A stretch of 13,810 bases of DNA, from IMG/VR virus record IMGVR_UViG_2695420521_000003. One strand, 5' to 3'. The DNA is from a virus. Its lineage: Duplodnaviria; Heunggongvirae; Uroviricota; Caudoviricetes. Positions 9,001 through 12,000 of this stretch are shown here, piece by piece. The first letter of the stretch is position 1. Each line of letters opens with the position of its first letter. Made by a program: the position numbers.

Positions 9001-12000
9001 TGAGGTTAAAACAAAATGAGTAAAGTCTTTATTTGCGCCGCCATTCCGGACGAACAGGCAATAAAGGAAGAAGGTGCAGTTGCTGTAGCCACTGCCATTG
9101 AAGCCGGTGACGAACGCCGCGCCCGCGCCAAATTTACCTGGCAATTCCTGGAGCAATATCCGGCTGCTCAGGACTGTGCTTATAAATTTCTTGTCTGCGA
9201 GGATAAACCCGGCATGGCCCGCCCTGCCCTTGATTCCTGGGATACCGAATATATGCAGGAAAACCGCTGGGATGAGGGAGCGTCTTCCTTTGTCCCGGTC
9301 GAACCAGAGCCGAATACAGAAATTGTTAACTTTAATCAGTTATCCGACGACAAACAGGCCGCTGTTCTCGTTAAGTTTGGCGCACATGAAAACGTCACCG
9401 TGGATATGGTCATCAACGCAAGCGGGCTTCTTGGCGATGACGACATGATGACCTTTGACGGACACCTCGCAGAGGCAATTATCCGGACTAAAGAAATTAA
9501 CGCCATGTATCCGGAACGTCAGATTGAATACATCAACGATGCCAGACGTGATTTAAAACCAACCGCCAAATGGCCCGACGTTCAGGCATATTTTCTCGAC
9601 CGTAAAAAACGCCAGGAAAAGGAGCGCAAAGAAGGTAGTGCATATACTTCTGTTGTTGATCTCGCCCGCGCCAGCGTCAACCGACAGAACACTGAAAATT
9701 CAACAGGAAAAATCAACCCGGTCATTGCTACCACTCATCGCGAATACAAGCAGACATGGAAAACACTGGATGACGAACTGGCCTACGCTCTCTGGCCTGG
9801 TGATGTGGATGCCGGAAACATTGACGGCAGCATCCATCGCTGGGCAAAAAAAGAAGTTATCGACAACGACCGCGAAGACTGGAAGCGTATCTCGGCATCA
9901 ATGCGCAAACAGCCTGATGCCCTTCGCTACGACCGCCAGACTATTTTTGGCCTTGTCCGTGAACGTCCGATCGACATTCACAAAGACCCTGGGGCACTGA
10001 ACAAATACATTACTGAATACCTGACTACAAAGGGCGTGTTTGAAGATGAAGGAAGAAATCAGAGCGCAACTGATACTCTCTCGTCGCCAGTACCAGAAAC
10101 TGATGCAGTGGAAACGGCAATTCCGGGCAACGAAAAAACCGAATGCAAAGTGGAAGTCGAACCATCTGTAGAGCGTGAGGGGCCGTTCTACTTCCTCTTC
10201 ACCGACAAGGATGGCGAAAAATACGGTCGCGCAAACAAACTTTCTGGTCTGGATAAGGCGCTGGCTGCCGGGGCTACTGAAATCACGAAAGAAGAATATT
10301 TCGCCCGCAAAAACGGTACATACTCAGGTTCACAACAAAATACTGGTGCATCTGACACGACCGCACAACCAGAGCCGGTAAAAGTTACAGCTGACGAAGT
10401 AAGCAAAATTATGCAGGCAGCCAATATCAGCCAGCCTGACGCCGATAAGTTGCTTGCGGCCTCTCGCGGTGAATTTGTTGCAGGGATTAGCGATCCGAAT
10501 GATCCGAAATGGGTGAAGGGGATTGAAACCCGCGATTCTGTGAACCAGAACCAGCAAGAAACCGAACAGAACGACCAGAAAGCGGAACAAAACAGCCCAA
10601 ATACGCAACAAAACGAGCCAGAAACGAAACAACCTGAGCCAGTAGCGCAACAGGAACCGGAAAAAGTCTGCACCGCCTGCGGTCAGAGCGGTGGCGGCAA
10701 CTGCCCTGATTGTGGCGCGGTGATGGGTGACACAACATACCAGGAAATATTCGATGAAGAGAATCAGCCTGAAGTTCAGGAAAATGATCCGGAGGAAATG
10801 GAAGGTACTGCACATCAGCACAAGGAGAACACTGGCGGCAATCAGCATCATGCCAGCGATAGTGAAACTGGCGAGGCGTCAGATCCCTTAATTAAGGCGA
10901 ACAGTCATCATAATCTCACATCCACCAGCAGAGCGGGGATTCATCTGATGATCGACCTTGAAACCATGGGAAAAAATCCCGATGCCCCGATTATCTCAAT
11001 AGGCGCAATATTTTTCGATCCGCAAACCGGAGATATGGGACCAGAATTTAGCAAGACCATCGATCTGGATACTGCTGGCGGAGTCATTGATCGTGACGTC
11101 ATTAAATGGTGGCTGAAGCAATCACGTGAAGCGCAGTCTGCCATTATGACCGATGAAATCCCGTTAGATGATGCACTACTGCAATTGCGGGAATTTATCG
11201 ACGAAAACTCCGGTGAATTTTTTGTTCAGGTCTGGGGTAATGGGGCCAACTTCGACAACGTGATTTTACGCCGTTCATACGAACGACAGGGTATCCCCTG
11301 CCCGTGGCGCTACAGCAACGATCGCGATGTACGCACAATCGTTGAGCTGGGGAAAGCCATAGACTTCGATGCCAGAACTGCTATCCCATTCGAAGGTGAG
11401 CACCATAATGCACTTGATGACGCTCGTTACCAGGCAAAATACGTTTCAGCTATCTGGCAAAAACTGATCCCGAGTCAGGCTGATTTTTAATGTTCAACCC
11501 TAATTGCCGCTAACCGTATATAGTTAGCGGCGGTTATGAGATATGGCTATGAGCAGCTTATTTTTAACCGAAGATGAATTGCTAATATTAACAGGCTGCA
11601 AATATGCAAGCCACCAGCGAAAATGGTTAATGGAAAACGGGCTTCCGTTCTATACCAATCGTAGTGGCAAACCGATTGTCAGCCGGGATCTATTTACCTG
11701 CAATAAAACTTTACCACCACGCGAGGTAGAGCCGAATTTTGGTGCAATCTGATGGGAAGACGAAGGAAAAATCCTGAACACGAAAAATTACCTCCAAATG
11801 TATACCCAAATAAATATAGTTATGTATGGAAACCAACATCCAGAGAATCTGTAACACTAACCGCCATCAAGGATGGTTTAGCTGCTTTATGGAAAAAGTA
11901 TGAGGAAACTGTAAATAATCACGATCGTGCAATGACATTCGGTCGCTTGTGGGAAAAATTCCTCGCCAGCGCCTATTACAGTGACCTTAGTCCAAGAACA

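What the first reader, a model, noticed from the sequence alone, without database searches (positions are those of the whole stretch)
9016..11490. Large DEDDh 3'-5' exonuclease with zinc ribbon and Q/N/E-rich linker, occupying the exo/recE slot without an annealase partner
Lambdoid recombination modules usually pair a 5'-3' exonuclease (Exo or RecE) with an annealase (Bet or RecT). This gene instead has a DnaQ-like DEDDh domain at the C-terminus, an uncharacterised ~400-aa N-terminal domain, a CxxC...CxxC ribbon and a low-complexity linker, and no annealase-sized gene lies between it and xis. It may be a non-canonical recombination or anti-defence nuclease.
Basis: partly seen in the sequence, partly recalled or inferred. 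Interest (0 to 1): 0.5.

Follow-up and report, generated by a model that had tools for sequence, protein, structure and literature searches.

The report
RecE-like prophage protein with swapped exonuclease
This common E. coli prophage gene keeps the middle and linker parts of the recombination nuclease RecE but carries a 3'-5' exonuclease of the phage T4 DexA type instead of RecE's 5'-3' nuclease. It never has a strand-annealing partner, and nobody has tested what it does.

Summary
ORF 9016-11490 (+) encodes 824 aa with a C-terminal DEDDh exonuclease domain (Pfam PF16473, E 4e-66; all five catalytic residues present; closest solved fold T4 DexA). It also has four conserved Cys (CxxC...CxxC) and a Q/N/E-rich linker, and xis-int follows directly with no annealase.

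It is a mosaic relative of RecE. Residues 263-626, including the linker and ribbon, align with Rac RecE 278-591. The N-terminus is the YdfE type; K-12 Qin ydfE is an IS2-truncated copy.

Relatives combine two N-terminal types with DEDDh, PD-(D/E)XK or no recognisable nuclease. RecT follows the PD-(D/E)XK forms in 4 of 4 loci and the DEDDh forms in none of 7 loci plus 77 closely related viral contigs. Folded domains are under purifying selection.

The gene occurs in about 88% of complete E. coli genomes and in phage Tritos. Tritos is the prototype of a published nuclease-only, Chi-rich lambdoid class.

Best reading (about 0.4): a tethered 3'-5' DNA-end exonuclease in phages that rely on host RecBCD-Chi recombination. 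Defence, anti-defence and RNase roles remain possible. This is a new variant of a known kind, of moderate interest.

The parts
9016..11490 (+). Whole CDS, 824 aa plus stop. A RecE-related mosaic protein with a C-terminal DEDDh exonuclease (YdfE family).
   Evidence: ORF list and translation. PHROG 2082 matches full length. Precomputed Pfam hits are YdfE_N, YdfE_C and Rv2179c-like. dN/dS over the whole gene is 0.28-0.37.
9002..9005 (+). Shine-Dalgarno GAGG, 10 nt upstream of the ATG.
   Evidence: Sequence read directly.
9016..9681 (+). N-terminal scaffold of the YdfE type (aa 1-222): an alpha/beta domain (aa 1-95) and a helical domain (aa 105-222). It is the alternative to RecE's PF06630 domain.
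9733..10053 (+). Conserved helical middle domain (aa 240-346). It is shared by the YdfE-type and RecE-type proteins.
   Evidence: AF2 pLDDT 92-98. Found by BLAST in relatives of every architecture. Aligns with RecE 278-350. dN/dS 0.16-0.30.
10174..10326 (+). Small beta-beta-alpha-beta-alpha domain (aa 387-437). It is absent from K-12 RecE.
   Evidence: AF2 pLDDT about 95. It falls in a gap of the RecE alignment. dN/dS 0.08.
10378..10527 (+). Conserved motif region (aa 455-504), DKLLAASRGEFVxGISDPNDPKWVKGI. It is shared with RecE at high identity and marks the start of the second exchangeable module.
   Evidence: BLASTP against RecE. blastn shows nt 1428-1877 is 75.5% identical to K-12 recE, and similarity to the PF06630-type fusion in L004 is 91% from nt 1363 to the end.
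10528..10659 (+). Q/N/E-rich low-complexity linker (aa 505-548). It is built from about five degenerate 21-nt (7-aa) repeats at 10549-10652.
   Evidence: Composition. Tandem Repeats Finder: period 21, 5 copies, 72% matches. AF2 pLDDT below 40.
10660..10740 (+). Putative four-Cys zinc ribbon (aa 549-575; C552, C555, C563, C566). It is shared with RecE.
   Evidence: The CxxC pairs. Cysteines kept in 118-121 of 121 homologues. Same motif in RecE 517-531. Support is weak otherwise: Pfam DZR E 0.13 and the stretch is not folded by AF2.
10741..10941 (+). Acidic and His-rich linker (aa 576-642). RecE homology ends inside it at aa 626, which is the nuclease swap junction.
   Evidence: The BLASTP and blastn end points against RecE. 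dN/dS 0.63-0.89. AF2 pLDDT below 40.
10942..11487 (+). DEDDh 3'-5' exonuclease domain (aa 643-824) of the DexA / Rv2179c-like type. Catalytic residues are D647, E649, D747, H797 and D802.
   Evidence: Pfam E 3.9e-66. phmmer against the PDB hits only DexA 8KEL/8KEN. Foldseek top hit is 8KEL, E 1.6e-9. Alignment and residue mapping. dN/dS 0.10-0.33.
10922..10929 (-). Chi octamer (GCTGGTGG on the minus strand) inside the gene. It is one of four same-strand Chi sites in the window.
   Evidence: Pattern search: 4 sites against 0.44 expected.
8659..8892 (+). kilR-type FtsZ inhibitor gene, the upstream neighbour in the same early-left operon.
   Evidence: PHROG 294 Kil, E 2.6e-34. PF27398 KilR.
11543..11752 (+). 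Excisionase-like gene (DUF4224). It is the immediate downstream neighbour, so there is no room for an annealase.
   Evidence: Pfam PF13986 and the PHROG excisionase family.
11752..12777 (+). Tyrosine integrase at the prophage end. tRNA-Ser follows at 12830-12919 (-).
   Evidence: Pfam Phage_integrase. ARAGORN.

Best explanation
The gene encodes a Mg2+-dependent 3'-to-5' exonuclease of the T4 DexA type, most likely acting on DNA.

Flexible linkers and a probable zinc ribbon tether this domain to a RecE-family, non-catalytic scaffold. The protein is made from the early-left (pL) operon of a Rac/Qin-like lambdoid prophage.

It is the opposite-polarity counterpart of RecE. Evolution has exchanged the last module of a three-module protein (aa 1-454 | 455-626 | 627-824). 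RecE's PD-(D/E)XK 5'-3' nuclease and its RecT partner were replaced by a DEDDh nuclease that works without a phage annealase.

Inferred mechanism: the shared scaffold brings the nuclease to the same place RecE works, namely double-stranded DNA ends of replicating phage DNA. There it removes 3' single-stranded tails. That would destroy substrates for annealing or RecF-type recombination and leave blunt or 5'-tailed ends that host RecBCD can load on. Phage concatemer formation would then run through RecBCD and the phage's own Chi sites.

Shown here: the domain identities, the catalytic residues, the mosaic relation to RecE, the absence of an annealase, purifying selection and the Chi enrichment.

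Inferred: DNA as the substrate, action at DNA ends and cooperation with RecBCD.
For: Domain and fold:
- PF16473 at E 3.9e-66 with all five catalytic residues present.
- The only PDB sequence hit, and the best fold hit, is T4 DexA, a DNA exonuclease (PMC12153337).

Scaffold shared with RecE:
- BLASTP 2e-59 over aa 263-626.
- 75.5% nucleotide identity over aa 476-626, ending 17 codons before the nuclease domain.

Combinatorial architectures among 184 cluster representatives:
- YdfE-type N-terminus with DEDDh;
- PF06630 N-terminus with DEDDh (P0139, L004);
- YdfE-type N-terminus with PDDEXK (P0132, L012);
- PF06630 N-terminus with PDDEXK (RecE).

Annealase co-variation:
- RecT follows the PDDEXK forms in 4 of 4 loci (K-12, L012, L020, L019).
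- It is absent after the DEDDh forms in 7 of 7 loci and in 77 of 77 viral contigs.

Link to recombination:
- A 56%-identical stand-alone DEDDh gene lies between ssb and abc2, next to erf, in phage g341c.
- T4 DexA itself acts in double-strand-break repair during intron homing (PMC12153337).

Chi:
- 4 same-strand Chi sites in the window against 0.44 expected.
- 9 sites (7 on the top strand) in phage mEp460_ev081 against 1.6 expected.
- Phage Tritos carries the gene in the same layout. It is the prototype of the nuclease-only class with no annealase, no anti-RecBCD and abundant Chi (PMC12315714 Table 1).

Selection: dN/dS is 0.08-0.33 in the folded domains.

Established knowledge: E. coli ExoI (sbcB) removes 3' tails and thereby blocks RecF-pathway recombination, and RecBCD needs nearly blunt ends.
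Against: - There is no biochemical or genetic test of this protein or of any full-length relative in the literature held here.
- The Pfam family is named for an RNase (Rv2179c, RNase AS), and DEDDh enzymes switch readily between RNA, DNA and dinucleotide substrates. RNase T, Orn and Cap18 are close fold matches.
- Zheng et al. note that 3'-5' exonucleases usually inhibit recombination. They decline to count DnaQ-type genes next to int as recombination genes.
- The N-terminal scaffold has no fold match, so its targeting role is a guess.
- Chi enrichment is a property of the whole phage class, including 68 phages with no nuclease at all. It therefore does not require this gene.
- The 77 viral contigs are close relatives, not independent observations.
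- Some relatives have a catalytically dead DEDDh domain (P0210: E-to-K and D-to-A) or no recognisable nuclease (L015, L016). The scaffold may therefore have a function of its own.
Confidence: 0.4

Rival explanations
1. Prophage-encoded defence or superinfection-exclusion nuclease. The DEDDh domain would degrade the genome of an incoming phage, either modified DNA as reported for the E. coli DexA homologue EcD (the 'HREX' mechanism) or the 3' ends of RNA-phage genomes as reported for ISG20-like 'TONDO' exonucleases. The large N-terminal part would act as an auxiliary or sensor domain.
For: - DexA is the closest solved relative.
- Plasmid-borne EcD protects E. coli against T4 (PMC12153337).
- Prophage-borne DEDDh exonucleases with unknown auxiliary domains defend against MS2 and Qbeta, sometimes without needing catalysis (PMC13344964).
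- The residue aligned with DexA W152, which that paper implicates in 5hmC recognition, is one of the three most variable positions of the domain. Its substitutions are radical: C 71, Y 41, H 5, S 4.
- D785 is conserved and aligns with DexA D169.
- The gene lies next to int, where accessory genes often sit.
- It is present in about 88% of E. coli genomes.
Against: - The W152 equivalent is never Trp in the large proteins; it is Ser here.
- The D90 equivalent is Asp (D719), not Ala as in EcD.
- EcD is a different, stand-alone protein. Its cloning primers give a start of MIDTET and an end of TIPETYD.
- PADLOC gives only a generic DEDDh match at E 1e-4.
- No promoter-like site above chance lies in front of the gene, and it sits at the end of the repressed early-left operon, as silent recET does in Rac.
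- The defence idea does not explain the scaffold shared with RecE, or the exact exchange between a PDDEXK-plus-RecT form and a DEDDh-alone form.
Confidence: 0.2
2. Anti-defence nuclease. Made early after induction or infection, it would destroy a host immune nucleic acid, such as cyclic or linear oligonucleotide signals, retron msDNA or another small DNA or RNA needed by a defence system.
For: - DEDDh folds that cut dinucleotides or act in signalling systems (Orn, REXO2, Cap18) are among the fold matches.
- The gene has early-operon placement.
- Neighbouring slots in Rac hold anti-restriction genes (ralR).
Against: - There is no sequence-level relation to any known anti-defence nuclease.
- Orn and Cap18 match worse than DexA and at the level of the generic fold only.
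- An 824-aa multi-domain protein with a RecE scaffold is not what is needed to cut small diffusible signals.
- Stand-alone homologues sit inside recombination modules, not anti-defence islands.
Confidence: 0.1
3. 3'-5' exoribonuclease acting on RNA, as the Pfam family name suggests. It might trim or degrade phage or host transcripts, for example the DicF precursor or the long early-left transcript.
For: - The best Pfam model is Rv2179c-like (RNase AS family) and NCBI names many copies '3'-5' exoribonuclease'.
- RNase T is a close fold match.
- DicF sRNA is encoded 0.5 kb upstream in the same operon.
Against: - By sequence, only DexA is detected in the PDB at E below 0.01 and no other solved chain is.
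- The scaffold is shared with a DNA-end exonuclease.
- The stand-alone homologue lies among DNA recombination genes.
Confidence: 0.1
4. Non-functional relic: a decaying recE gene that picked up foreign sequence by illegitimate recombination.
For: - Disrupted copies exist: K-12 Qin ydfE is cut by IS2 and a Shigella flexneri copy is fragmented.
- Rac-like prophages are often defective.
Against: - The full-length ORF of 823-824 aa is kept in nearly all clusters and in 66 of the 72 full-length genes recovered from related loci.
- dN/dS is 0.08-0.33 in the folded domains but about 0.6-1.0 in the linkers.
- Catalytic residues and cysteines are kept.
- The gene is present in sequenced lambdoid phage genomes: Tritos, mEp460_ev081, HannyBb and Evi.
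Confidence: 0.03

Closest known systems
RecE (exonuclease VIII) of the Rac prophage, with RecT
   Same: - Same operon slot, between kil and xis-int, in the same kind of prophage.
- Homologous over aa 263-626: the middle helical domain, the LAASRGEF...DPNDPKW motif, the Q-rich linker, the four-Cys ribbon and the acidic linker.
- Similar size, 824 against 866 aa.
   Different: - The catalytic domain is DEDDh (3'-5') instead of PD-(D/E)XK PF12684 (5'-3').
- The N-terminal domain is the YdfE type instead of PF06630.
- There is an extra small domain at aa 387-437.
- No RecT follows.
- It scores 275 bits against the RecE equivalog cut-off of 1269.
Phage T4 DexA (exonuclease A; PDB 8KEL/8KEN) and its E. 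coli homologue EcD ('HREX')
   Same: - Closest solved structure by sequence (E 3.7e-6) and by fold (E 1.6e-9).
- All five catalytic residues align, and so does D169.
- DexA is a 3'-5' DNA exonuclease used in host-DNA scavenging and in double-strand-break repair (PMC12153337).
   Different: - Only 26% identity.
- DexA and EcD are stand-alone proteins of about 200 aa. Here the domain is the last quarter of an 824-aa protein.
- W152 is replaced by Ser, or by Cys, Tyr or His in relatives.
- DexA's extra loops are absent.
- EcD is a different sequence.
Stand-alone DnaQ-type exonuclease of P22-like phages (g341c gp29 / epsilon34)
   Same: - 56% identical to aa 643-817, so it is the nearest relative of the domain outside the fusions.
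- Encoded in the early-left operon.
   Different: - It is 182 aa with no scaffold.
- It lies inside a complete recombination module, erf-ssb-exo-abc2.
- It keeps Trp at the DexA W152 position.
YdfE of the K-12 Qin prophage (Pfam YdfE_N PF27430 / YdfE_C PF27432)
   Same: - 69% identical over aa 1-257.
- Same neighbours: dicB, ydfD, then the gene, then int.
- This is the same gene family.
   Different: K-12 ydfE is a pseudogene cut by IS2E after codon 256. The family name therefore describes only the N-terminal part, and no function is attached to it.
'Tritos' recombination-module type of Zheng et al. 2025 (PMC12315714)
   Same: - Phage Tritos carries an 81%-identical full-length copy in the same layout.
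- The class is defined as nuclease present, with no annealase, SSB or anti-RecBCD, and 7-21 top-strand Chi sites.
- This matches the window and mEp460_ev081 (7 top-strand and 2 bottom-strand sites).
   Different: In the text available here, the paper does not describe the protein's domain make-up or its relation to RecE, and it proposes no mechanism for it. The supplementary tables were not held.

Membership tests
DEDDh (DnaQ-like) 3'-5' exonuclease superfamily, Rv2179c-like/DexA branch (PF16473) | Profile match above the curated cut-off | tested here: met
   222.5 bits against a cut-off of 27, aa 643-814 covering profile positions 2-177 of 177.
DEDDh (DnaQ-like) 3'-5' exonuclease superfamily, Rv2179c-like/DexA branch (PF16473) | Exo I (DxE), Exo II (D) and Exo III (Hx4D) acidic and His residues | tested here: met
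   D647, E649, D747, H797 and D802 align with DexA D7, E9, D119, H186 and D191. They are kept in 119-121 of 121 homologues.
DEDDh (DnaQ-like) 3'-5' exonuclease superfamily, Rv2179c-like/DexA branch (PF16473) | RNase H-like alpha/beta fold | tested here: met
   AF2 pLDDT 74-94 for aa 639-824. Foldseek matches DexA, a DnaQ domain, RNase T and Orn at E 1e-9 to 1e-7.
DEDDh (DnaQ-like) 3'-5' exonuclease superfamily, Rv2179c-like/DexA branch (PF16473) | Metal-dependent 3'-5' exonuclease activity and its substrate (DNA or RNA) | not testable with these tools
   This needs an enzyme assay.
HREX (DexA/EcD 5hmC-recognising exonuclease, PMC12153337) | Trp equivalent to DexA W152 | tested here: not met
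   S767 here. Among 121 close homologues it is C 71, Y 41, H 5 and S 4.
HREX (DexA/EcD 5hmC-recognising exonuclease, PMC12153337) | Acidic residue equivalent to DexA D169 | tested here: met
   D785, kept in 121 of 121.
HREX (DexA/EcD 5hmC-recognising exonuclease, PMC12153337) | Loss of the tetramer-forming Asp (DexA D90 replaced by Ala in EcD) | tested here: not met
   D719 is retained in 121 of 121.
RecE / exodeoxyribonuclease VIII (NF007259; PF06630 + PF12684) | Equivalog profile score above the cut-off | tested here: not met
   275 bits against 1269. Only profile positions 261-603 of 877 are matched.
RecE / exodeoxyribonuclease VIII (NF007259; PF06630 + PF12684) | C-terminal PD-(D/E)XK nuclease domain (PF12684/DUF3799) | tested here: not met
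   No Pfam hit. K-12 RecE, scanned the same way, hits PF12684 at E 4e-28.
RecE / exodeoxyribonuclease VIII (NF007259; PF06630 + PF12684) | N-terminal Exonuc_VIII domain (PF06630) | tested here: not met
   No hit. The YdfE_N/YdfE_C domains are there instead.
RecE / exodeoxyribonuclease VIII (NF007259; PF06630 + PF12684) | Central non-catalytic region with the linker and the Cys4 motif | tested here: met
   BLASTP 2e-59, aa 263-626 against RecE 278-591. 75.5% nucleotide identity over aa 476-626.
Two-component phage recombinase (exonuclease + single-strand annealing protein) | Adjacent annealase gene (RecT, Bet, Erf or Sak type) | tested here: not met
   - The neighbours are Kil and the excisionase.
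- No RecT or Erf by BLAST in 7 DEDDh-type loci and 77 viral contigs.
- The Tritos class is listed as lacking an annealase.
- Bet and Sak types were not searched directly with sequence queries.
YdfE family (PF27430 YdfE_N, PF27432 YdfE_C) | Homology to K-12 Qin YdfE and the Pfam hits on record | tested here: met
   69% identity over 257 aa, E 5e-124. Precomputed Pfam hits. These models are not in the local Pfam copy, so they were not re-scored.
Known anti-phage defence systems (PADLOC-DB 2.0) | Match to a system-specific protein model | tested here: not met
   Only a generic 'DEDDh, Cas-associated' model at E 1.2e-4 and an 'Effector exonuclease' model at E 0.0095.

The most novel reading that the evidence does not exclude
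The RecE-family scaffold may be a general platform that delivers interchangeable nucleases to phage DNA ends, and the choice of nuclease may set the phage's recombination strategy. The 5'-3' PD-(D/E)XK module with RecT would make the phage self-sufficient. The 3'-5' DEDDh module without an annealase would act as a phage-encoded ExoI-like enzyme that trims 3' tails, so that host RecBCD loads and is then converted by the phage's Chi sites. That would be the first phage factor known to recruit RecBCD rather than inhibit it.
Probability: 0.15. Interest if true: 0.65.

Novelty: new variant of a known kind. Interest (0 to 1): 0.42.

Why it matters
- RecET is a workhorse of recombineering, yet the function of RecE's large N-terminal region is still unknown. 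This protein shows that the region is a conserved, selectable scaffold used with nucleases of either polarity, or with none. That gives a natural comparison for finding out what the scaffold binds.
- The gene is one of the most widespread prophage genes in E. coli, present in about 88% of complete genomes. It is the only recombination-type gene in the 'Tritos' class of Chi-rich lambdoid phages. Knowing what it does would help explain how phages without their own recombinase use, or survive, RecBCD.
- If it proved to be a defence nuclease instead, it would be a very common and so far uncounted one.

Tried and rejected
Structure and fold searches
- Foldseek against BFVD gave nothing at E <= 0.001.
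- phmmer of aa 1-642 against PDB sequences gave no hit.
- The afdb50 library was not available.
- AF2 did not fold the ribbon or the linkers.

Literature
- 'Rv2179c' with 'prophage' gave 0 papers.
- 'Rv2179c-like' gave 1 irrelevant paper.
- 'ydfE' with 'exonuclease' gave 0 papers.
- 'full-length RecE' matched 'receptor' papers only.
- The supplementary tables of Zheng et al. are not held.

EcD identity
I considered that the characterised EcD might be a fragment of this protein. This is rejected: its cloning primers encode a start of MIDTET and an end of TIPETYD.

Own promoter or terminator
Promoter-like sites are at chance level (6 against 6.4). Only a weak hairpin at 8960-8973 lies before the gene. 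There is no evidence for separate expression.

Other checks
- PADLOC gave only generic DEDDh hits.
- A genome-collection scan with a 20-sequence alignment failed for lack of conserved stretches. A 6-sequence alignment gave only 11 loci.
- The viral-contig scan returned 80 near-identical loci, so the 77 of 77 figure is not 77 independent events.
- ORFs on the opposite strand inside the gene (for example 10188-10673 and 10330-10851) were not pursued. They overlap a coding region under purifying selection and the low-complexity linker.
- The idea of a decaying recE gene is rejected on the dN/dS pattern.

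
Full report
**1. The observation**

The window holds an uninterrupted ORF at 9016-11490 on the + strand, with an ATG start and 824 codons. A GAGG lies 10 nt upstream of the start.

Pfam places a Rv2179c-like DEDDh 3'-5' exonuclease domain at aa 643-814 (E 3.9e-66, 222.5 bits against a cut-off of 27). The five catalytic residues D647, E649, D747, H797 and D802 align with those of phage T4 DexA. They are kept in 119-121 of 121 close homologues.

The only two CxxC pairs of the protein are C552/C555 and C563/C566, and they are kept in 118-121 of 121 homologues. 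However, the Pfam zinc-ribbon hit is weak (E 0.13) and AlphaFold2 does not fold this stretch. The ribbon is therefore probable, not shown.

Residues 505-548 are 25% Q, 16% E and 14% N. They are encoded by about five degenerate copies of a 21-nt unit at 10549-10652.

The next ORFs downstream are a DUF4224 excisionase and a tyrosine integrase, followed by tRNA-Ser and mtfA. The ORFs upstream back to racR are DUF1391, two unknown PHROGs and Kil. There is no annealase.

**2. What it is**

*The region.* It is the early-left operon of a Rac/Qin-like lambdoid prophage. The order is paa, DUF1627, ydaV, a ydaU-like gene, ydaT, an HTH gene, racR, then DUF1391, ydfB, DicF, kilR, this gene, xis and int. 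In Rac itself the same slot holds recE-recT.

*Relation to RecE.* The protein is a relative of RecE. BLASTP aligns aa 263-626 with RecE 278-591 (E 2e-59), and the NCBIfam RecE model matches aa 239-627 (275 bits, far below its cut-off of 1269). The stretch of aa 476-626 is about 75% identical to RecE in protein and 75.5% in DNA. It contains the LAASRGEF...DPNDPKW motif, the Q-rich linker, the Cys4 motif and the acidic linker. The similarity stops 17 codons before the DEDDh domain and about 15 codons before RecE's minimal nuclease fragment.

*The N-terminus.* RecE's N-terminal PF06630 domain and its C-terminal PD-(D/E)XK domain PF12684 are both absent. The N-terminus carries the recently named Pfam domains YdfE_N and YdfE_C instead. 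The K-12 Qin pseudogene ydfE lies in dicB-ydfD-ydfE'-IS2E-intQ'. It is 69% identical to the first 257 residues of this protein and is then cut by IS2.

**3. A modular family**

A full HMMER scan of 1.84 billion cluster representatives with aa 1-460 found only 184 clusters. Domain-wise BLAST and Pfam scans of the long members show a combinatorial pattern:
- the N-terminus is either the YdfE type or the PF06630 type;
- the middle domain is shared by both;
- the C-terminus is DEDDh, PD-(D/E)XK, or nothing recognisable.

All four N-by-C combinations exist:
- P0139 and the phage vB_EcoS-640R1 protein are PF06630 plus DEDDh;
- P0132, P0186, P0222 and L012 are YdfE type plus PD-(D/E)XK;
- RecE is PF06630 plus PD-(D/E)XK;
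- the query is YdfE type plus DEDDh.

The vB_EcoS-640R1 gene is 91% identical in DNA to the window gene from codon 455 to the end and unrelated before that. The protein is therefore built from three exchangeable modules: aa 1-454, 455-626 and 627-824. Patchy synonymous divergence along the gene points the same way. For example, against one partner dS is 1.17 in codons 101-222 and 0 in codons 240-386.

**4. The annealase goes with the nuclease type, not with the scaffold**

Every PD-(D/E)XK form examined is followed at once by a RecT-family gene. These are K-12, L012 and L020 (Pfam RecT at E 3e-44 and 5e-42) and L019.

No DEDDh form is followed by one. This holds for the window, L001, L003, L004, L010, L011 and L013, where the gene is followed by xis and int. 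It also holds for 77 of 77 IMG/VR contigs that contain the complete gene, in which the prophage ends a median of 1.4 kb after it. Those contigs are close relatives and do not count as independent events.

The missing annealase is thus a fixed feature of the DEDDh form and not an accident of this prophage.

**5. The gene is functional and very common**

- megablast finds it in 4778 of 5426 complete E. coli genomes, with at least 80% coverage in 3465.
- It is present in sequenced lambdoid phage genomes: mEp460_ev081, Tritos, HannyBb, Evi, PhiR42_1 and the PPompW phages.
- dN/dS is 0.08-0.33 in the folded domains and in the Q-rich linker. It is about 0.6-1.0 in the three linkers predicted to be disordered.
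- A decaying-relic reading is therefore rejected, although disrupted copies exist in K-12 Qin and in Shigella.

**6. Leads on function**

(a) The nearest relatives of the DEDDh domain outside the fusions are stand-alone genes of about 185 aa in lambdoid and P22-like phages, 56-61% identical. In Salmonella phage g341c that gene lies inside a complete recombination module, erf-ssb-exo-abc2. Zheng et al. 2025 (PMC12315714) make the same point for epsilon34.

(b) T4 DexA is a 3'-5' DNA exonuclease used for host-DNA scavenging and for double-strand-break repair in intron homing (PMC12153337).

(c) Phage Tritos carries an 81%-identical copy in the same layout. Tritos is the prototype of a class in Zheng et al. 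Table 1 with a nuclease but no annealase, SSB or anti-RecBCD protein, and with 7-21 top-strand Chi sites.
- I count 7 top-strand and 2 bottom-strand Chi sites in mEp460_ev081, against 1.6 expected.
- I count 4 Chi sites in the window, against 0.44 expected. All are on the strand that is 'top' in the standard phage orientation.
- These phages evidently leave RecBCD active and use Chi.

(d) From established E. coli genetics, ExoI, a 3'-5' ssDNA exonuclease, removes 3' tails. This blocks RecF-type recombination, and RecBCD needs nearly blunt ends to load.

**7. Best explanation (confidence about 0.4)**

The protein is a tethered 3'-5' DNA exonuclease that uses the RecE-type scaffold to act at phage double-stranded DNA ends early in lytic growth. 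By trimming 3' tails it would hand the ends to host RecBCD, which the phage's Chi sites then turn into a recombinase. No phage annealase is needed.

The domain identities, the relation to RecE, the co-variation with RecT, the selection pattern and the Chi enrichment are shown. DNA as the substrate, action at ends and cooperation with RecBCD are inferred.

Points against:
- no experiment exists on this protein or a full-length relative;
- the Pfam family is named for an RNase;
- the scaffold's role is unknown;
- 68 Chi-rich lambdoid phages manage with no nuclease at all;
- Zheng et al. decline to count DnaQ-type genes next to int as recombination genes;
- some relatives have a dead active site (P0210) or no recognisable nuclease (L015 and L016).

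**8. Rivals**

*Defence (0.2).* An E. coli DexA homologue, EcD, is reported to digest 5hmC DNA and to protect against T4. Prophage-borne ISG20-like DEDDh enzymes with unknown auxiliary domains protect against RNA phages.
- In favour: the residue aligned with DexA W152 is among the three most variable of the domain and changes radically (C, Y, H, S).
- Against: it is never Trp, D719 is retained where EcD has Ala, EcD is a different protein and PADLOC gives only generic hits. There is also no sign of an own promoter, and the exchange with RecE plus RecT is left unexplained.

*Anti-defence (0.1) and RNase (0.1).* Both remain possible because DEDDh enzymes change substrate easily, but nothing specific supports either.

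*Relic (0.03).* Rejected, as explained in section 5.

**9. Comparison with what is known, and novelty**

It works like a DexA/ExoI-type exonuclease mounted on a RecE body. It is a member of the DEDDh superfamily (all sequence and fold criteria are met) and of the YdfE family. It is not a member of the RecE equivalog, because the nuclease, the N-terminal domain, the score cut-off and the RecT partner are all not met. It is not a two-component recombinase. It does not meet two of the three HREX sequence criteria.

The gene is annotated everywhere as 'exonuclease', 'exonuclease VIII' or '3'-5' exoribonuclease'. Its class has been tabulated (the Tritos type), and DnaQ-type nucleases in lambdoid recombination modules have been noted. 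In the literature I could search I did not find three things:
- the three-module relation to RecE;
- the polarity swap coupled to loss of RecT;
- any functional test.

I rate it a new variant of a known kind, with interest about 0.4.

**10. Limits**

- The YdfE_N and YdfE_C models are not in the local Pfam copy, so I rely on the precomputed hits.
- Bet-, Sak- and Sak4-type annealases were not searched with their own profiles. Absence rests on Pfam and PHROG scans of the neighbours, BLAST with RecT and Erf, and the published classification.
- The co-variation sample for the PD-(D/E)XK forms is only four loci.
- The Chi argument is correlative.

Noticed in passing
window 8440-8491 (+): A DicF sRNA gene (Rfam RF00039, 76.7 bits against a gathering score of 48) lies 0.5 kb upstream of the exonuclease in the same operon. 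Only a dicB remnant (annotated in the near-identical locus L001) and a Rac-type kilR follow it. The early-left operon therefore mixes Qin-like and Rac-like parts.
   Followed up: partly
window 3-10, 5404-5411, 10922-10929, 11611-11618 (all on the - strand): Four Chi octamers lie on one strand, against 0.44 expected from shuffles. One is inside the exonuclease gene and one is inside xis. The strand is the 'active' one in standard lambdoid orientation. Phage mEp460_ev081 has 9 sites (7 top strand, 2 bottom strand) against 1.6 expected.
   Followed up: partly
window aa 767 of the ORF (nt 11314-11316): The residue aligned with T4 DexA W152, reported to recognise 5hmC, is Ser here. Among 121 close homologues it is C 71, Y 41, H 5 and S 4. 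Stand-alone phage homologues keep Trp. It is one of the three most variable sites of the domain.
   Followed up: partly
P0210 (752-aa cluster representative, PF06630-type N-terminus plus DEDDh): This relative has Lys for the catalytic Glu (DLKT instead of DLET) and Ala for the Exo II Asp. It is probably a catalytically dead exonuclease domain kept on the scaffold.
   Followed up: no
L015 6341-8614 and L016 6341-8602 (Erwinia, Pantoea): These relatives of 753-757 aa have the YdfE-type N-terminus, the middle domain and the small beta domain, but no recognisable nuclease domain. A Sipho_Gp157 gene follows them. They may be the 'RecE-2' proteins without a nuclease that Zheng et al. mention.
   Followed up: no
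window 778-927 (-) and 625-837 (-): A hok/sok-type toxin-antitoxin locus: sok RNA (Rfam RF01794, 103.9 bits) overlaps a small hok/mok-like ORF. The matching locus L001 annotates hokD here.
   Followed up: no
window 1119-1877 (-): The paa adhesin gene (AcfC family) sits in a low-GC patch (GC 0.37 at 1501-2000) inside the prophage. This is likely a virulence cargo gene.
   Followed up: no
window 11752-12777 (+): The integrase matches the PHROG 2082 'exonuclease' profile at E 1e-13 (profile positions 541-816). The profile probably contains mis-joined exonuclease-integrase sequences, so this is a database artefact and not a real relationship. The integrase is also 341 aa here against 360 aa in the near-identical locus L001.
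   Followed up: no
window 7433-7849 (+): A 138-aa ORF of unknown function (PHROG 1363) has the same length as lambda Gam. It has no Pfam or PADLOC hit, so it is not recognisable as an anti-RecBCD protein.
   Followed up: partly
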